Positions 2,063 through 9,783 of a stretch of DNA of 11,094 bases are shown here, one piece after another. Where the stretch lies: NCBI GenBank assembly GCA_050042985.1, contig JBHJIY010000237.1, positions 1 to 11,094 of the forward strand. The letters are read 5' to 3'. Positions within the stretch are counted from its first letter, which is position 1. Each line of letters begins with the position of its first letter. The DNA comes from Phormidesmis sp. (GTDB lineage Bacteria > Cyanobacteriota > Cyanobacteriia > Phormidesmidales > Phormidesmidaceae). The notes under the pieces are model-generated. The model did no database searches. It worked only from the letters and a program-made list of their open reading frames with translations, and was not told the DNA's origin. A program made the translations under genes and the position numbers.

Positions 2063-3700
2063 GTGACCTCACAAACTTCCACATCACAACCCAAAACTGC
2101 CGATACCCCTGACCTTGGTGTTGCAGCAGGATCCTCCCCTTTGAACCGTCAAATGCTGGCGATTCTAGACTTTGGCTCACAGTACTCTGAACTGATCGCC
2201 CGTCGCATCCGCGAAACCGAAGTGTATTCGGAGGTTCTTTCTTACCGCACAACGGCGGAACAGCTTCGAAAGCTAAATCCAAAAGGGATTATTCTCTCGG
2301 GTGGCCCTAGCTCTGTATACGACAAGGGTGCACCTGCTTGTGATCCCGAGATTTGGAATTTGGGGATTCCGGTACTGGGCGTTTGCTACGGTATGCAGCT
2401 GATGGTGAAGCAGCTGGGTGGCCAGGTTGAGCGGGCAGAGCGCGGCGAGTACGGTAAAGCGGCATTGTTGATCGATGAAGTTGCTGGCTTGCTAAGTGAG
2501 GTAGAAGAAGCTTCGACGATGTGGATGAGTCACGGTGATTCGGTGACTCAGCTACCCGATGGATTTACGGTGTTGGCGCATACGGAGAATACGCCGCAGG
2601 CGGCGATCGCACATCCACAAAAGCGATTCTACGGCGTCCAGTTTCATCCAGAAGTCGTTCACTCAAAAGGTGGCAGCGCTCTAATACGCAACTTCGTGTA
2701 CGACGTGTGTGAGTGTGAACCCACTTGGACTACTGAAGCTTTTGTTGAAGAAGCGATTCGCGAAGTACGTGCCAAAGTTGGCGATCAGCGCGTTTTACTA
2801 GCGCTCTCTGGTGGCGTAGATTCCTCCACCTTGGCCTTCCTTTTGCACAAGGCGATAGGCGACCAGCTTACCTGCATGTTTATCGATCAAGGGTTCATGC
2901 GTAAGCGCGAGCCTGAGCGGTTAATCGAGATCTTCGATAAGCGTTTTCACATCAATGTGGAATATATCAATGCGGGCGATCGCTTTCTCGAAAAGGTCAA
3001 AGGCGTCACCGACCCCGAGGAAAAGCGAAAAATCATCGGCCACGAATTCATTCGCGTCTTTGAAGAAGAATCCACTCGCCTGGGTCCCTTCGATTACCTA
3101 GCGCAAGGCACTCTATATCCAGACGTTATCGAGTCTGCGGATACGAATGTAGATCCTCAAACAGGTGAAAAAGTCGCCGTCAAAATCAAAAGTCATCACA
3201 ACGTGGGTGGCTTACCAAAAGATTTACGATTTAAGCTAATTGAGCCGCTGCGAAAGCTTTTCAAAGACGAAGTACGCAAGGTAGGAACGGCAGTGAACTT
3301 GCCAGATGACATTGTGAGACGTCATCCTTTCCCCGGTCCTGGTCTGGCGATTCGCATTTTGGGTGAAGTGACTCCAGAGCGGCTACGTATCTTGCGTGAA
3401 GCGGACTATATTATCCGCCAAGAAATTCGCCGTAGTGATAGCTATCATGATTTCTGGCAGGCTTTTGGTGTGCTGCTACCGGTGCGCAGCGTGGGTGTCA
3501 TGGGTGACCAGCGCACGTATGCATATCCGATTGTGCTGCGCCTAGTGAGCAGTGAAGATGGGATGACAGCGGACTGGTCGCGTGCACCGTACGAACTGCT
3601 AGAGAGTATCTCAAACCGTGTGGTTAATGAGGTAGACGGTGTGAATCGTGTGGTTTATGACATTACTTCTAAGCCGCCTGGCACTATTGAGTGGGAATAG
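2063..3700 (+). CDS. guaA: GMP synthase (glutamine-hydrolysing)
   Basis: 545 aa. N-terminal glutamine amidotransferase domain ([29 protein letters not shown]), PP-loop ATP pyrophosphatase motif SGGVDSS, and the typical C-terminus PPGTIEWE. The GTG start at 2063 is preceded by AAGGA 5 nt upstream. An alternative ATG start at 2153 ([11 protein letters not shown]) would remove a 30-aa N-terminal extension. Confidence 0.93.
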
Positions 3701-3870
3701 CCCCGTCTGGAAATGGGTATTCATCTGCTGTATCTGTCCATAGTCCGTAGCCACCTTTCGTGGTTTACGGCACAATAGACCTACAGTAGCGGTGTACTTT
3801 TCGCTTCCTGGCTTTCCCGCTTCTTTCTTGTTTACCAGTATTCTTAGTCAATTTAGCTCTTCCCCCGCCA

Positions 3871-4274
3871 TGAACTCTGACTCATTGCTCGAACTCATCC
3901 AAAAAGGCTATCGCGTCACGCTAGGTGCGGCTTCCACTGCTGTAGAAGCGGTGCAAGATCCTCAGCGCACGGCTGATGAATTTTCGGCAATTGGTACAGA
4001 CTGGGAGCGCCTGGCAGACAAGCTTGAAGTGCGCGGTGCTCTCACAGAAAAAGAAGCCCGTGACTTTGTAGAAGGCGTAACGAGCCAAATGCCCGAGCCT
4101 TTTCGCAGTGCCTCGTCTCCTTTTACTTCAGGTGAGCCTGCTGAACCGCCTACCGTGACGACGGTTGCGACGCCTGTAGTGGATACTGAGCTGCAAGCAG
4201 AAGTGACGTCTTTGACTGAAGAGTTGATTGCGATCCGTCAGGAAATCGAAGCGTTGAAAAACAAAGACGCATAA
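3871..4274 (+). CDS. Small phasin-family-like protein (COG3937-like N-terminus) with Pro/Thr-rich linker and C-terminal coiled-coil; hypothetical
   Basis: The track ORF is 3792-4274, but its first 26 aa (MYFSLPGFPASFLFTSIL...) look non-coding. The likely start is the ATG at 3871 (MNSDSLLELIQKGYRVTLGAASTAVEAVQD...). The N-terminal LIQKGYxxxLGAASxAVE block resembles cyanobacterial 'phasin family' proteins, and the C-terminus (TEELIAIRQEIEALKNK) is coiled-coil-like. The family assignment is from memory, not a search. Confidence 0.5.
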
Positions 4275-4281
4275 TCCTTAA

Positions 4282-4299
4282 CTACTCGTATTAATATCG
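4282..4299. repeat. Left copy of imperfect direct repeat flanking the xisHI cassette (CTACTCGTATTAATATCG)
   Basis: Matches 5174-5190 (CTAGTTGTATTGATTCG) at about 14 of 17 positions with one 1-nt gap. Aligned by eye. Confidence 0.3.
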
Positions 4300-4310
4300 A
4301 ATATCTGGGT

Positions 4311-4349
4311 AGAAAGCAGATCTAGCGGTAAAGCCAAGGTCTGCTTTCT
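4311..4349. terminator. Strong hairpin between convergent genes (phasin-like + / xisI -); candidate bidirectional terminator lacking a U-tract
   Basis: AGAAAGCAGA (4311-4320), a 19-nt loop, then TCTGCTTTCT (4340-4349). This is a perfect 10-bp stem. A TTTTT run follows about 20 nt downstream on the plus strand (4369-4373). There is no adjacent T-run on either strand. Confidence 0.4.
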
Positions 4350-4388
4350 AGTGTGTAGGTGTATCTCAGTCTTTTTAGAAGGAAGCTG

Positions 4389-4763
4389 TCAAGCAACTGC
4401 ATATTCCGTTTGTTCACGTACTTCAACCGGCTGAAATGCTAAAACGATCCGCTCTTTAGGTACACCTGCTGCGACTAACTCCTTTGTGATGCTGTCTTCA
4501 ATTCCGTCGTAGTGCATCCAAATCTTACTGTCGCGGATTTCAGCATGGACGATGCAACCGTGAACTCGGCGATGACCTTCCCACCCTTCGTTCATCAGCA
4601 TGAAATGGCTTCTATCTTCGCTGGTGACAACATAGGTTTTGATGTCTCCATAGCGATAAGGTATGTCAGCGTAGTACTGAAGGCTACTCCTGATTGCTTC
4701 TCGCCACTGCTCCAACGTATCTACTGTGACATCTGTCAGATGAGTATCTATTGAGGTATCCAT
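4389..4763 (-). CDS. xisI: XisI family protein (fdxN-element excision controlling factor homolog)
   Basis: 124 aa. The YRYGDIKTYVVTSEDRSHFMLMNEGWEGHRRVHGCIVHAEIRDSKIWMHYDGIEDSITKELVAAGVPKERIVLAF block matches the XisI family (Pfam XisI; Anabaena PCC 7120 XisI). Its start overlaps the xisH stop by 16 nt, the usual xisH-xisI operon arrangement. Confidence 0.85.
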   Translation of the reverse strand: MDTSIDTHLTDVTVDTLEQWREAIRSSLQYYADIPYRYGDIKTYVVTSEDRSHFMLMNEGWEGHRRVHGCIVHAEIRDSKIWMHYDGIEDSITKELVAAGVPKERIVLAFQPVEVREQTEYAVA

Positions 4764-5167
4764 CGAATAATTTCCTCAGTTTTAGGATCAAACACAATAA
4801 TTCTAAAGTCAGGTTCTTCTAAAAGGAGTTGACCTGCTTCCTCAAGAAAAATGGTATCAAACGTCGTTGAACTTACTGCCAAATACAAAATACGATCTGG
4901 CTCTCGACGCTGAAGTGTCCTGGCGTACATGAAGAATTGCCCCCACGCATTTTCTAGATCGTTGAGCGGAGAAGGGCTAGAAAAACTTTTGATTTCGACC
5001 GCAATCTTGTCTGCGCCTTTTTCAGCTGCGATGAGCTTTTCAGCGCCAAGGTCTATGTGGACAGAGCGTAAGCCCAACTTTAGCGTTAGCGGATCGTCTG
5101 TGATCGTCCAGCCATCTCTGATGAGAGCTGCCTTCACAGTATCATGATGAAAATCCTTGGCTGGCAT
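4748..5167 (-). CDS. xisH: XisH family protein (endonuclease-fold; fdxN-element excision controlling factor homolog)
   Basis: 139 aa. MPAKDFHHDTVKAALIRDGWTITDDPLTLK...DLGAEKLIAAEKGADKIAVEIKSF is the characteristic XisH N-terminus (Pfam XisH). It lies immediately upstream of xisI and overlaps it. Confidence 0.85.
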   Translation of the reverse strand: MPAKDFHHDTVKAALIRDGWTITDDPLTLKLGLRSVHIDLGAEKLIAAEKGADKIAVEIKSFSSPSPLNDLENAWGQFFMYARTLQRREPDRILYLAVSSTTFDTIFLEEAGQLLLEEPDFRIIVFDPKTEEIIRWIPQ

Positions 5168-5173
5168 AGAACA

Positions 5174-5190
5174 CTAGTTGTATTGATTCG
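5174..5190. repeat. Right copy of imperfect direct repeat flanking the xisHI cassette (CTAGTTGTATTGATTCG)
   Basis: See the left copy at 4282-4299. It lies 7 nt beyond the xisH start codon, in the xisH-hisA spacer. Confidence 0.3.
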
Positions 5191-5225
5191 TGGTGCCGTT
5201 AGTTCATTACGGCGAAGACTTGGCC

Positions 5226-6002
5226 TTAGGCGATCGCACTTCCCATCCCACCTTCAGGCGGTACATCTTGCCAACGGCCTTGACCCACTGCGCGGATAGC
5301 CTGCTTCAGAGAAACATCGCCTGTGTATAGTGCCTTACCAACGATCACACCAGACACGCCAGATGTTACAAGGCTCAAAAGGCTGAGTAAGTCTGAGACT
5401 GAACTAACGCCGCCCGATGCAATCACAGGCGTATCAATAGCGGTGGCTAACTCTCTAAGCGCTTCTAAGTTTGGTCCTTTCATGGTGCCATCGCGCTTGA
5501 TATCGGTGTAGATAATCTCTGCCGCGCCCATGTCACCCATCCGTTTCGCGAGTTCTATAGCCATTACTTCAGAGGTCTCTAGCCAGCCGCGAGTTGCCAC
5601 TTTGCCTTCGCGGGCATCGATACCCACGATGATTTGGCCAGGAAATTTTTCGCACAGCTGACCGACCAAGGCTGGATTTTCAACGGCGACAGTGCCTAAA
5701 ATTGCATACTGTACGCCGAGCTCGAATAGGGCACTTACTCGTTCAGCATCACGTAAGCCACCGCCGACTTCAATCGGGATATCTATTGCGTCTGCGATCG
5801 CTCTAATCGCTTGCCAGTTTTCTGGCTTCCCAGCTTTCGCGCCATCCAAATCAACGAGGTGTAAACGGGTCGCACCCTCAGCCGCCCATTGCTGTGCGAC
5901 TTCTACAGGGTTGTCGTTGAATATTTGAGACTGCTCGTAGTCTCCCTGAAACAGCCGTACGCAGCGGCCTTCTAACAGGTCAATAGCGGGGATGACATCC
6001 AT
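5226..6002 (-). CDS. hisA: 1-(5-phosphoribosyl)-5-[(5-phosphoribosylamino)methylideneamino]imidazole-4-carboxamide isomerase HisA
   Basis: 258 aa. The [23 protein letters not shown]-terminus and the (beta/alpha)8 phosphate-binding motifs (GGGLRD, ASGGVSS) identify it as HisA rather than HisF. Confidence 0.92.
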
Positions 6003-8349: not shown

Positions 8350-8886
8350 TTAGGCTGGTGTTCCAGAAGCTGCGATCGCCGCAGTGCTAGAACCATTCAG
8401 CTTATTCATAGCAGCAGTTTTGGCGCTTAGTGTGCCAACCACATCGATCCCAAGCGTGGCTTCTACCTGAGTCAAAAACTGCTTGACGATTTCGGGATAC
8501 ACGTTGGCTAGGCTTGCGATCGCTTTTCCATCTCCGTTATCAATCACATTCACATTCCCAAGCTGCACACGGTGAGGAATCGCCGCCGCTTCCTGCAAAA
8601 TCATTTCAACCTGCTGTAGCAAAAAGATTTGACTGGCGTCTGCGCCTGTCTCTTTCCAGACCTGCGCCAGCATTTCGTTCACTTGCGCTGCTGCTTTGGC
8701 ATTCTCAGCCGTGCCAGCCGCTGCCCCTTTCGCATGCAGTGCTTGTGCTTCTCGGCGAGCCTCGGCGGGTAGTACTTCGTCGGCTTGCAGTCGCAAACGC
8801 TCTAGCTTAGCCCTTGTTGCTTGTAGCTGCTGCTCAGCTCTCGCTCTGGCCTCTTTCGCCGCTGCCGATGTGCGCTCTTCCTCAGA
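8350..8886 (-). pseudogene. C-terminal remainder of flotillin paralog 2, in the same reading frame directly downstream of the in-frame TAA
   Basis: 8887 minus 8350 is 537 nt (179 codons), so this ORF is in the same frame as 8887-9783. Translation continues ...DQRS*SEEERTSAAAKEARARAEQQLQATRAKLERLRLQADEVL...QIFLLQQVEMILQEAAAIPHRVQLGNVNVIDNG. This is colinear with the paralog-1 C-terminus (DIFLLQKLEVLLKTLTATVPDVAVQNVTVVDTQ). The track ORF 8350-8796 begins at an internal TTG. Confidence 0.6.
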
Positions 8887-9783
8887 TTATGATCGTTGAT
8901 CCAGCGCAGCTTTATTCTTGCTTAGTTCGTTGGTCTTTTCTTGAATAATCGTCAGCGCCTGAGACTTGAACATTTCAGCGCGCTTTTGACAGTCGGCTTC
9001 TATTCGCTCAGCTTCACCAATGGCGACCGCTTCGGCAATTTCAGCATCGCGGACAATTTTGGCAATCTGCCGACGGCCAATGGAGCTAAGGTAGTCCACA
9101 TCGTCTGTGACGCTCTGCACTTTCAGTGTATCGAGCTGAAGGCCTAGTTTGTTCAAGTCACGGGCTACATCTTCTGCGATGCGCTCGGCAAAGTTGAGTC
9201 GATCTTCATTGACTTGTTCGGGTGTGAGGTTGGCGACGACTCCACGCAAGTTCCCTTCTAGTGTTTCGCGTACCACCCGCTTAATTTCGGATCGATTGCG
9301 ACCCAAGAATCTTTCGATGGCGTTGCCGACAATTCCTTTGTTGCTAGAGACTTTTACGTTTGCGATCGCCTGAATATTCAGCGGCGTTCCTCCTTTCGCG
9401 TAGGAATTACTCACCTCTACCGGAATCGGCATGGTGGTCATGTCCATCTTTTCCACCCGCTCAATCACAGGTGTTACAAAAGCCCTACCGCCAAATACAA
9501 CTCGGTACCCTACCTCTTTGCCGTTTGGTTGCTTGTACTGTCGTCCCGAAATGATCAAAATCTCATTGGGTTTGCAAATCCGTAAGCAGGCTTTGAGCAG
9601 AGCAATGATACTGGCTAAAACAATCAGCGTTACACCAATAGCACCCACGCTAAAAACGCCGACAGCGGCAGGTGGTGGTGCTGTTGTTTGGCCAATAGGT
9701 CCGCTCGCTTGTGCCAGCACAATAGACTGCTCAGCGGGTAACTGCTCCGCAAAATTCTCTGACTCAGCAGAATGTTTACTCAT
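8887..9783 (-). CDS. Flotillin-like SPFH/band-7 protein, paralog 2, N-terminal 298 codons ending at an in-frame TAA
   Basis: AAGGAG lies 8 nt upstream of the ATG at 9781-9783. The 45-aa N-terminal extension is followed by a TM segment (VGVFSVGAIGVTLIVLASIIALL) and an SPFH core colinear with paralog 1 (NEILIISG...TLEGNLRGVVANLTPEQVNEDR...LDTLKVQSVTDDVDYLSSIGRRQ). The ORF is closed by TAA (complement of 8887-8889) in the middle of the Glu/Ala-rich coiled-coil region. Confidence 0.75.
   Translation of the reverse strand: MSKHSAESENFAEQLPAEQSIVLAQASGPIGQTTAPPPAAVGVFSVGAIGVTLIVLASIIALLKACLRICKPNEILIISGRQYKQPNGKEVGYRVVFGGRAFVTPVIERVEKMDMTTMPIPVEVSNSYAKGGTPLNIQAIANVKVSSNKGIVGNAIERFLGRNRSEIKRVVRETLEGNLRGVVANLTPEQVNEDRLNFAERIAEDVARDLNKLGLQLDTLKVQSVTDDVDYLSSIGRRQIAKIVRDAEIAEAVAIGEAERIEADCQKRAEMFKSQALTIIQEKTNELSKNKAALDQRS

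What the first reader, a model, noticed from the sequence alone, without database searches (positions are those of the whole stretch)
4389..5167. Orphan xisH-xisI two-gene module between hisA and a phasin-like gene, compositionally foreign
XisH (endonuclease-like fold) and XisI were described as accessory factors for XisF-mediated excision of the fdxN element in Anabaena PCC 7120. In this window there is no recombinase, no fdxN and no element boundary. The two genes overlap by 16 nt. They are visibly more AT-rich than hisA or guaA (for example, the 4765-4920 stretch). They sit in a 2.2-kb stretch (2984-5229) that lacks HIP1 octamers, which otherwise occur about every 700 bp. This pattern suggests a horizontally acquired, self-contained nuclease-like pair. 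I do not believe its function in this orphan context is established. Selfish addiction module, toxin-antitoxin-like pair and defence are all open hypotheses. It is the best candidate in the window for an uncharacterised 'system'. It follows hisA after only a 58-nt spacer, so it may be co-transcribed with a histidine biosynthesis gene.
Basis: partly seen in the sequence, partly recalled or inferred. Interest (0 to 1): 0.7.

Follow-up and report, generated by a model that had tools for sequence, protein, structure and literature searches.

The report
Stand-alone xisH–xisI nuclease/partner gene pair
This is an ordinary, intact copy of a two-gene cassette (a small nuclease-like protein plus its obligate partner) found in thousands of cyanobacterial genomes; its role away from a recombinase is still untested, and it was inserted long ago next to a histidine-synthesis gene.

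Summary
Window 4748-5167(-) is a full-length XisH (PF08814, E 2.5e-51) and 4389-4763(-) a full-length XisI (PF08869, E 1.8e-35). They overlap by 16 nt and start 58 nt after hisA. No recombinase lies within 10 kb on either side, and the pair has no element borders.

"Compositionally foreign" is overstated. GC is only about 4-5 points below the flanks. The same offset holds for the family in general (33 of 40 loci). The HIP1-free stretch is not significant (P about 0.38).

Comparing related genomes shows that the hisA/downstream-gene junction is empty in 21 related species. xisHI was gained once in one Phormidesmidales subclade. It then evolved under purifying selection at housekeeping-like rates and was later broken, deleted or replaced in sister lineages.

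Across about 90 loci, xisI always follows and overlaps xisH, and no third gene is conserved. The commonest neighbours are toxin-antitoxin genes, restriction-modification genes and transposases. The pair occurs on 40 plasmids and is essentially absent from phages. xisH is lost alone more often than xisI.

Best reading (about 0.45): a toxin-antitoxin-like cassette of a PD-(D/E)XK nuclease and its partner. Orphan xisHI pairs are already documented, so this is a new member of a known kind.

The parts
4748..5167 (-). xisH: 139-aa single-domain PD-(D/E)XK-fold nuclease-like protein. Candidate catalytic residues are D39, E58 and K60; D5 and H8 are also invariant.
4389..4763 (-). xisI: 124-aa obligate partner protein. 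The first 12 or so residues are a disordered extension. The fold is known only from the XisI family and has no recognisable DNA-binding motif.
4748..4763 (-). 16-nt overlap of the xisH 3' end with the xisI start (ATG at 4763, with GAGGAA 8-13 nt upstream). This arrangement suggests translational coupling.
   Evidence: Overlap is a family hallmark: 13 nt in 57 of 77 intact pairs, 16 nt in 4 and 25 nt in 8.
5168..5225 (-). 58-nt spacer between the hisA stop and the xisH start. No terminator-like structure and no sigma-70 consensus match.
   Evidence: fold z +1.39, i.e. no more structure than shuffles. The homologous spacer is alignable in L007, L012 and L014.
4310..4350 (.). 14-bp-arm hairpin between the converging xisI and downstream-gene 3' ends. 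It is the likely shared transcription stop. It lacks a U-tract.
   Evidence: Inverted repeat I1. The RNA fold of 4275-4388 gives -25.7 kcal/mol, z -2.96. Several empty junctions in relatives carry a visible GC-rich inverted repeat followed by a T-run at the equivalent place (read from the sequences printed; not folded).
4275..5225 (.). The occupied junction: everything between the hisA stop and the stop of the downstream conserved gene. It is 951 bp here and 24-185 bp in 21 related species. The insertion borders cannot be placed to the base.
5226..6002 (-). hisA: the upstream flank of the insertion and the possible source of read-through transcription.
   Evidence: Pfam His_biosynth E 5e-87. 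Synteny.
3870..4274 (+). Conserved 134-aa gene of unknown function, convergent with hisA in all relatives. It is the other flank of the insertion and is not demonstrably a phasin.
   Evidence: Called as 134 aa in L001-L006. Conserved across about 30 species. No Pfam or NCBIfam family.

Best explanation
The pair is a chromosomal copy of the widespread, self-contained XisH-XisI cassette, and it most likely works as a toxin-antitoxin-like nuclease/partner module.

Shown:
- XisH is a minimal one-domain PD-(D/E)XK-fold protein with the D...ExK motif intact.
- XisI is its obligate partner, encoded from a start codon inside the end of xisH.
- The cassette sits in an intergenic hot spot between the hisA stop and the shared 3' hairpin.
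- It was gained once in the ancestor of a Phormidesmidales subclade. It has been kept under purifying selection in this lineage and was broken, deleted or replaced in sister lineages.

Inferred:
- XisH cuts nucleic acid, probably DNA.
- XisI binds XisH and restrains or directs it. Coupled translation would ensure that XisH is never made without XisI.
- The module persists as an addiction-type or stress/defence accessory cassette, not as part of an excision machine.
- It is probably transcribed by read-through from hisA.
- The role of xisHI in fdxN-element excision in Anabaena would then be a lineage-specific recruitment of such a pair.
For: 1. Families and folds. D5, H8, D39 and K60 are invariant and E58 is present in 115 of 117 XisH sequences.
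3. Obligate pairing and overlap. In 89 further loci xisI directly follows xisH on the same strand wherever the contig continues. The overlap is 13 nt in 57 of 77 intact pairs. On plasmids, the annotation under the xisH match also lists an XisI gene in all but three of the 40 matching records.
4. Neighbourhood. Of 255 ORFs within 2.5 kb, the commonest specific families are PIN (5), HTH_3 (3), HicB (2), MazE (2), DUF433 (2), DUF2283 (2), Uma2 (3), DDE transposases (4) and restriction-modification subunits. On Picosynechococcus PCC 7002 pAQ6 the pair lies inside a row of toxin-antitoxin pairs: higB-HTH | xisH-xisI | copG-PIN | vapC-abrB.
5. Asymmetric decay.
   - In PCC 7003 the same island has a clean 375-nt deletion of xisH that keeps xisI. 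higB is also lost there while its HTH partner is kept.
   - xisH alone is broken in Leptolyngbya boryana and in L007.
   - Solo xisI genes occur on three further plasmids.
   - XisI places outnumber XisH places on plasmids, 54 to 45.
   - XisI also outnumbers XisH in Thiomargarita genomes: 7 to 4 and 32 to 22 (PMC4853749, PMC10756260).
6. Mobile, accessory behaviour. The junction is empty in 21 related species, there was one gain, and L014 shows a very recent replacement by a DUF4058 gene although its flanks are 98-99% identical to those of L012. The pair is on 40 plasmids. Genomes and single contigs carry several copies (PMC11249958). GC is lower than the flanks family-wide.
7. The pair is functional, not a relic: dN 0.09-0.11 with saturated synonymous sites, and an identical XisH protein is encoded on 12 contigs from several samples.
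Against: - No toxicity, nuclease activity or XisH-XisI binding has been shown for any family member in the literature I could search.
- One lineage, seen in two independent metagenomes (L090, L091), has intact xisH while xisI is interrupted by a roughly 30-nt insert carrying a stop codon. XisH there has no clearly inactivating change. A potent toxin should not tolerate this.
- XisI has no HTH, RHH or AbrB domain of the kind classical type II antitoxins use for autoregulation.
- XisH is unusually conserved for a toxin: 75-78% identity between cyanobacterial orders.
- PADLOC and NCBIfam have no model that matches.
- The only experimental role known for the family is in site-specific excision (Ramaswamy et al. 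1997, as cited in PMC4874684 and PMC11249958).
- In this window the neighbours are housekeeping genes, not an island of mobile genes.
Confidence: 0.45

Rival explanations
1. The pair supplies trans-acting accessory or directionality factors for a large serine recombinase encoded elsewhere in the genome. This would mirror XisH/XisI with XisF at the Anabaena fdxN element, controlling excision or inversion of some unlinked element.
For: This is the only genetically demonstrated role of the family. xisH and xisI are required for XisF-dependent fdxN-element excision (Ramaswamy 1997, as summarised in PMC4874684 and PMC11249958). Hwang et al. 2014, as cited in PMC4853749, propose that XisH is an endonuclease and XisI a directionality factor. 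The strong sequence conservation of XisH would fit a conserved macromolecular partner.
Against: - No recombinase lies within 10 kb on either side, and the pair has no element borders.
- No Resolvase or Recombinase family appears among the 25 most frequent families of 255 neighbouring ORFs.
- The record titles place the host among non-heterocystous Phormidesmidales/Leptolyngbya-type cyanobacteria.
- The literature reports xisHI without xisF in Beggiatoa and Thiomargarita (PMC4853749). In Calothrix, three xisHI operons lie outside the nif-interrupting elements (PMC11249958).
- Many genomes carry several to dozens of copies.
- The rival does not explain the association with toxin-antitoxin genes or the preferential loss of xisH.
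Confidence: 0.2
2. The pair is a two-subunit anti-phage or anti-plasmid nuclease. It would be restriction-like or an abortive-infection system, with XisI acting as sensor, specificity or licensing subunit for the XisH nuclease.
Against: Neither protein hits PADLOC. No methyltransferase or other conserved third component accompanies the pair. In the window, and in the Nodosilinea locus L089, the neighbours are housekeeping genes. Solo xisI genes and preferential loss of xisH fit a toxin/antidote relation better than a two-subunit enzyme. This rival overlaps with the best explanation, because toxin-antitoxin modules can act in abortive infection.
Confidence: 0.2
3. The pair is a housekeeping function coupled to histidine biosynthesis, because it sits 58 nt downstream of hisA on the same strand.
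For: Same strand, a short spacer, and no terminator between hisA and xisH.
Against: In 21 related species hisA is followed directly by the convergent downstream gene. Other relatives carry unrelated cargo at the same junction: DUF4058, a pentapeptide-repeat protein or a methyltransferase. Elsewhere xisHI sits in unrelated contexts.
Confidence: 0.03

Closest known systems
XisF-XisH-XisI excision system of the Anabaena/Nostoc PCC 7120 fdxN element
   Same: The same two protein families (PF08814, PF08869), the same gene order xisH then xisI, and the same tight operon. The folds match solved XisH and XisI structures.
   Different: There is no xisF-type serine recombinase within 10 kb, no interrupted gene, no element borders and a non-heterocystous host lineage. 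Identity to the solved Anabaena/Nostoc-type proteins is only about 46-50% for XisH and about 29-40% for XisI.
Orphan xisH-xisI pairs already described in non-heterocystous cyanobacteria and giant sulfur bacteria: the Lyngbya majuscula hox region, Beggiatoa, Thiomargarita, and the extra operons of Calothrix NIES-4101
   Same: A stand-alone pair without xisF, variable genomic context, often several copies per genome, function stated to be unknown (PMC2674450, PMC4853749, PMC10756260, PMC11249958). In Lyngbya the pair heads a transcript with unrelated downstream genes. Here it may be the tail of the hisA transcript.
   Different: This copy sits at a different locus and in a different lineage (Phormidesmidales). 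Here its history can be reconstructed: one gain, long residence, then repeated decay or replacement.
Toxin-first type II toxin-antitoxin modules (such as higBA) and small PD-(D/E)XK nuclease toxin/immunity pairs (CdiA-CT/CdiI, TseT/TsiT)
   Same: Two small co-directional overlapping genes. The first protein has a nuclease fold. The pair is patchily distributed, plasmid-borne and multicopy, and is embedded among PIN/VapC, HigB, HicB and MazE modules. The first gene is lost preferentially, leaving a solo second gene.
   Different: No toxicity or neutralisation has been shown. XisI has no DNA-binding antitoxin domain and a fold of its own. XisH is free-standing, not the C-terminal domain of a secreted toxin. 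In one lineage intact xisH coexists with a broken xisI.
Other small accessory genes that expand in cyanobacterial genomes and occupy the same kind of site (Uma2/DUF820, DUF4058)
   Same: They occupy the very same hisA junction in sister species: DUF4058 in L014 and L016. Uma2 genes recur next to xisHI elsewhere. Uma2 is a predicted PD-(D/E)XK endonuclease (PMC3424549).
   Different: These are single genes without a partner, from different families, and their function is equally unknown. I did not test whether DUF4058 has a nuclease fold.

Membership tests
XisH family (Pfam PF08814; PD-(D/E)XK superfamily) | Full-length match to the family HMM above the gathering score | tested here: met
   173.8 bits against a cutoff of 25; residues 1-134 on profile positions 1-134 of 134.
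XisH family (Pfam PF08814; PD-(D/E)XK superfamily) | Fold of the solved family members and an intact D...(D/E)xK motif | tested here: met
XisH family (Pfam PF08814; PD-(D/E)XK superfamily) | xisI immediately downstream and overlapping | tested here: met
   16-nt overlap here. The family norm is 13-34 nt.
XisI family (Pfam PF08869) | Full-length HMM match and the family fold | tested here: met
fdxN-type developmental excision system (XisF + XisH + XisI) | A large serine recombinase (xisF-like) encoded next to xisHI | tested here: not met
   None in the window or within 10 kb on either side in L001. The rest of the genome could not be searched.
fdxN-type developmental excision system (XisF + XisH + XisI) | Location inside a DNA element that interrupts a gene and is bounded by recombination sites | tested here: not met
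   The pair lies in an intergenic junction between intact hisA and an intact downstream gene. No flanking repeats were found.
fdxN-type developmental excision system (XisF + XisH + XisI) | Heterocyst-forming host | tested here: not met
   The closest genomes are titled Phormidesmis, Phormidesmidales or Leptolyngbya. That these are non-heterocystous filamentous lineages is established taxonomy, taken from my own knowledge.
fdxN-type developmental excision system (XisF + XisH + XisI) | Genetic requirement of xisHI for excision | not testable with these tools
   Needs genetics.
Type II toxin-antitoxin module | Two small adjacent co-directional genes, usually overlapping and co-expressed | tested here: met
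   139 and 124 aa with a 16-nt overlap.
Type II toxin-antitoxin module | Accessory, mobile distribution: patchy presence, plasmids, multicopy, clustering with other toxin-antitoxin loci | tested here: met
Type II toxin-antitoxin module | The toxin gene decays first and orphan antitoxin genes remain | tested here: inconclusive
   About six lineages have xisH lost or broken with xisI kept. One lineage shows the reverse. Three have both broken. The sample is small and not systematic.
Type II toxin-antitoxin module | The antitoxin carries a DNA-binding domain for autoregulation | tested here: not met
Type II toxin-antitoxin module | The toxin arrests growth and the cognate partner neutralises it by direct binding | not testable with these tools
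   Needs expression and binding assays. No complex prediction was available.
Catalogued anti-phage defence systems (PADLOC-DB v2) | Match to a model of a known or candidate defence protein | tested here: not met
   No hit at E<=0.1 for XisH, XisI or the downstream ORF.

The most novel reading that the evidence does not exclude
XisH-XisI would be an unrecognised, very large class of toxin-antitoxin or abortive-defence modules: a minimal PD-(D/E)XK nuclease held in check by a partner with a fold of its own. It numbers thousands of clusters in cyanobacteria and has spread to Chloroflexota, giant sulfur bacteria and high-GC bacteria. The textbook role in fdxN-element excision would then be a secondary recruitment of one such pair by a serine recombinase. 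The window copy would be an ordinary working member, useful because close relatives with empty, broken and replaced sites provide natural controls.
Probability: 0.35. Interest if true: 0.6.

Novelty: new member of a known kind. Interest (0 to 1): 0.3.

Why it matters
The locus itself is ordinary. The family, however, is abundant: at least 2743 clusters at 90% identity for XisH alone. It has carried the label 'excision factor' since 1997, although most copies have no recombinase to assist.

This window and its relatives offer a clean natural experiment. The same junction is empty in 21 species, occupied by an intact pair, occupied by a pair with a frameshift in xisH, reduced to remnants, or replaced by a DUF4058 gene. 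Together with the toxin-antitoxin-rich neighbourhoods and the preferential loss of xisH, this turns 'function unknown' into a specific, cheap test: XisH alone versus XisH plus XisI, with D39/E58/K60 mutants.

If the toxin-antitoxin-like reading holds, the annotation of thousands of genes should change. The Anabaena excision phenotype would also need reinterpreting.

Tried and rejected
- HIP1 gap as evidence of foreign origin: rejected. P is about 0.38, most of the gap is guaA and the downstream gene, and L001 has a longer gap elsewhere.
- Recent horizontal transfer: rejected. Synonymous sites are saturated, dN is like that of the neighbours, and the bearers of xisHI form one clade. Low GC is a family trait.
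- Element borders or target-site duplication: none found.
- Promoter or terminator in the hisA-xisH spacer: the consensus scans found none, and the spacer is not structured. The L012 ortholog has TTGACA-N18-TACAAA in its spacer, but this is not conserved in the window, so I drew no conclusion.
- PADLOC, NCBIfam, Rfam and tRNA scans: no relevant hits.
- Phage origin: no hit in 50,697 phage records, and only 2 relatives among 2.9 million viral contigs.
- E43G in the XisH of L090 as an inactivating change that would explain tolerance of the broken xisI: rejected, because E43 varies in 15 of 117 sequences, including intact pairs.
- Literature search for XisHI as a toxin-antitoxin pair or as defence: nothing found. 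The key structural paper (Hwang et al. 2014, PMC5094899) is not held, so its model is quoted only second-hand from PMC4853749.
- 'Phasin-like' neighbour: no family match.
- Alternative later start for xisI: the only candidate is a TTG at codon 17. NCBI aa for the L012 ortholog. I kept the ATG at 4763 because of the upstream GAGGAA and the family-wide overlap, but the true start remains uncertain.
Full report
**1. The observation**

The window contains two overlapping minus-strand ORFs: 4748..5167 (139 aa) and 4389..4763 (124 aa). They follow hisA (5226..6002) after 58 nt.

- Pfam assigns them, over their full lengths, to XisH (PF08814, E 2.5e-51) and XisI (PF08869, E 1.8e-35).
- Both match solved structures by sequence: 2inb and 2okf for XisH; 2nlv, 3d7q, 2nwv and 2nvm for XisI.
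- There is no tRNA, no Rfam family and no pair of repeats bracketing xisHI.

**2. Composition**

On the 20-kb source locus L001, xisH (GC 0.448, GC3 0.414) and xisI (GC 0.467, GC3 0.456) are the lowest two of 16 genes. The others have GC 0.474-0.530. In a leave-one-out codon-preference score, only xisI lies outside the neighbours' range.

The HIP1-free stretch is real but unremarkable. A gap this long among 16 random sites arises in 38% of simulations. More than half of it is guaA and the downstream gene. L001 has a 3200-bp gap elsewhere.

Across 40 unrelated xisHI loci with at least 3 kb of flank, the cassette is AT-richer than its flanks in 33. The mean offset is -4.2 points (Wilcoxon p 4e-7), and the window shows -4.1. 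The AT shift is therefore a property of the family, not a mark of recent arrival here.

**3. Source and surroundings**

An identical XisH protein is encoded on 12 metagenomic contigs from several samples. NCBI names it 'element excision factor XisH family protein [Phormidesmis sp.]'.

On the 230-kb contig, the 10 kb on each side hold glycosyltransferases, class II ribonucleotide reductase, two Band_7 genes, the transglutaminase-like gene, hisA | xisH, xisI | the 134-aa gene, guaA, cbiD, moaA, a CAP-domain gene, rpsD and ftsH. There is no recombinase, transposase or integrase.

**4. History of the locus**

A scan of one genome per species with HisA returned 80 loci. The order Band_7-Band_7-TGL-hisA-[junction]-134-aa gene-guaA-cbiD is conserved in about 30 Phormidesmidales-type species.

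- *Empty sites.* The junction is 24-185 bp in 21 species. Several of these carry a visible GC-rich inverted repeat followed by a T-run.
- *Occupied sites.* The junction is about 1 kb in the following:
  - the window species (xisHI);
  - L012 (xisHI, 83% and 80% identity);
  - L007, where xisH carries a +1 frameshift and there is a 24-nt deletion at the overlap;
  - L014, where a DUF4058 gene sits after the first 12 or so codons of xisH;
  - L016, which has the C-terminal 45 codons of xisI plus an N-truncated DUF4058 gene;
  - L023 (a pentapeptide-repeat gene) and L032 (a methyltransferase).
- *One gain.* In a neighbour-joining tree of HisA+GuaA+CbiD, the four genomes with xisHI or its remnants form one clade, and the sister clade has empty sites. 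This indicates a single gain.
- *Long residence.* Between the window and L012, synonymous sites are saturated in xisH and xisI as in the flanking genes (pS 0.69-0.84). dN is 0.090 for xisH and 0.113 for xisI, against 0.076 for hisA, 0.050 for guaA and 0.17-0.18 for cbiD and TGL. The cassette is therefore an old resident under purifying selection.
- *Dispensable.* L012 and L014 are 98-99% identical in HisA, GuaA and the 134-aa protein. One has intact xisHI and the other has DUF4058 in its place.

**5. The family at large**

- *Size and conservation.* XisH has at least 2743 clusters at 90% identity among candidates sharing short exact words with the query. The nearest relatives outside the clade are 75-78% identical and come from other orders, so the protein is strongly constrained. 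D5, H8, D39, K60 and G76 are invariant and E58 is present in 115 of 117 sequences. D39...E58-x-K60 is the PD-(D/E)XK motif, and XisH is family 60 of that superfamily in PMC3424549.
- *Pairing.* In 89 further loci, xisI follows xisH on the same strand wherever the contig continues. The overlap is 13 nt in 57 of 77 intact pairs. Four contigs carry two pairs.
- *Plasmids and phages.* 40 plasmid records carry xisH. In all but three of them the annotation under the match also lists XisI. One is a Herpetosiphon plasmid. No phage record among 50,697 carries it, and only 2 of 2.9 million viral contigs do. Host GC ranges from 0.32 to 0.76, so the family reaches beyond cyanobacteria.
- *Neighbours.* Among 255 ORFs within 2.5 kb, the commonest specific families are PIN, HTH_3, HicB, MazE, DUF433, DUF2283, Uma2, DDE transposases, type I restriction subunits, TPR and STAND-like ATPases. 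No serine-recombinase family is among the 25 most frequent in either batch.
- *Individual contexts.*
  - Kamptonema: next to a type II restriction-modification system in an island with an integrase and a transposase.
  - Nodosilinea: between a TPR gene and putA.
  - Pseudanabaena plasmid: followed by a hypothetical-PIN pair.
  - Herpetosiphon plasmid: with a PIN gene and an integrase.
  - Picosynechococcus PCC 7002 pAQ6: higB-HTH | xisH-xisI | copG-PIN | vapC-abrB.

**6. Which partner is dispensable?**

- In Picosynechococcus PCC 7003 the same island as in PCC 7002 carries a clean 375-nt deletion. It removes xisH from codon 13 onward and joins codon 12 to the xisI start. In the same island higB is gone while its HTH partner remains.
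- xisH alone is split in Leptolyngbya boryana plasmids and frameshifted in L007.
- Solo xisI genes, with no detectable xisH, occur on plasmids of Synechocystis PCC 7338, Brasilonema and Chroococcidiopsis.
- XisI places outnumber XisH places on plasmids, 54 to 45, although XisI is less conserved. Published counts show the same in Thiomargarita: 7 to 4 and 32 to 22 (PMC4853749, PMC10756260).
- The reverse case was seen once. L090 and L091, from two metagenomes, have intact xisH and an xisI interrupted by a roughly 30-nt insert with a stop codon. E43G in that XisH is not a convincing inactivation.
- Both genes are broken in L098, L102 and L130.
- The sample is small and was not collected systematically.

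**7. Mechanism**

*Shown:* the folds, the intact catalytic motif, the obligate overlapping pairing, the accessory and plasmid-borne distribution, the toxin-antitoxin-rich neighbourhoods, and purifying selection.

*Inferred:*
- The overlapping start, with GAGGAA 8-13 nt upstream, would couple XisI synthesis to XisH synthesis.
- The spacer after hisA is unstructured and has no terminator. The only strong hairpin (4310-4350; -25.7 kcal/mol, z -2.96) lies after xisI. Read-through from hisA is therefore plausible.

I put the toxin-antitoxin-like nuclease/partner reading at about 0.45. A trans-acting recombinase accessory role and a two-subunit defence nuclease each get about 0.2. A histidine-linked housekeeping role is effectively excluded by the empty sites.

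**8. Comparison with what is known**

The genes are members of the XisH and XisI families; all testable features are met. The locus is not an fdxN-type excision system: the adjacent recombinase, the interrupted gene and borders, and the heterocystous host are all not met.

It behaves like a toxin-first type II module or a nuclease/immunity pair. Membership is not established, because there is no activity data, XisI has no DNA-binding domain, and there is one counter-example.

Orphan xisHI pairs have been reported repeatedly, with their function left open:
- Lyngbya, 2009: 'still to be disclosed' (PMC2674450);
- Beggiatoa and Thiomargarita (PMC4853749);
- Calothrix, 2024 (PMC11249958).

In the held library I found no paper proposing or testing a toxin-antitoxin or defence role. 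The structural paper by Hwang et al. 2014 could not be read.

**9. Verdict**

This is a real, intact, long-resident copy of a known two-gene cassette, so it is a new member of a known kind. The claim of compositional 'foreignness' is weak, and the HIP1 argument is not valid. Interest is modest (0.3). It lies in the unresolved function of the family and in the set of empty, broken and replaced sites found here, not in this locus as such.

Noticed in passing
window 8350-9783 (-), stop at 8887-8889: The second Band_7/flotillin-like gene is a single 477-aa ORF in the otherwise near-identical contig L001 (5385-6818). In the window it carries an in-frame stop at codon 299 plus four nearby substitutions (ELRKIKAELDQRSK becomes ELSKNKAALDQRS*). 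This is either a strain-specific pseudogene or an assembly variant.
   Followed up: partly
L014 6775-7766 and L016 6775-7826 (the junction equivalent to window 4275-5225): A DUF4058 gene (PF13267, E 1.5e-95) occupies the place of xisHI. L014 keeps only the first 12 or so codons of xisH. L016 keeps only the last 45 codons of xisI, and its DUF4058 gene is N-truncated. L014 and L012 are 98-99% identical in the flanking proteins, so the swap is very recent. The two DUF4058 copies are 73% identical and sit in non-sister genomes, so the site was either invaded twice or exchanged by recombination.
   Followed up: partly
L181 about 2986 (Picosynechococcus PCC 7003) and L014 about 6870: Two independent deletions or replacements of xisH end at the same place, right after codon 12 (...AVK / ...TVK). 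With n=2 this could be coincidence, microhomology or a preferred break site.
   Followed up: no
L023 2670-3395 (-) and L032 6871-7656 (-): The same hisA junction holds unrelated single-gene cargo in two other species: a 241-aa pentapeptide-repeat protein and a 261-aa Methyltransf_24/O-methyltransferase-like protein. The junction is therefore a general hot spot for insertion of small accessory genes.
   Followed up: partly
L090/L091 6500-6552: A roughly 30-nt insert (CGCGTTGGCGTAGCCTCCCCTTAAGGGAATCTC) interrupts xisI with a stop codon. It is identical in two metagenomes, and xisH stays intact there. I did not examine what the insert is, for example a miniature element.
   Followed up: no
window 3870-4274 (+): The 134-aa gene convergent with hisA is conserved (72-89% identity) and syntenic in about 30 Phormidesmidales species, and more weakly (49-51%) in a few others. 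It has no Pfam or NCBIfam family. The gene callers start it at the ATG at 3870, not at the GTG at 3792 of the longest ORF.
   Followed up: partly
L160, L123, L147, L148, L156 (metagenome contigs): xisHI pairs occur on contigs with flank GC of 0.62-0.76, far above typical cyanobacterial values. This suggests spread into high-GC phyla. I did not identify the organisms.
   Followed up: no
L087/L088 5325-9673: In two Kamptonema assemblies the block hyp180-xisH-xisI-RE_XamI-Eco57I-type methylase is identical, but the left flanks differ (integrase/ATPase versus DDE transposase/housekeeping genes). The pair may therefore travel together with a restriction-modification system.
   Followed up: no
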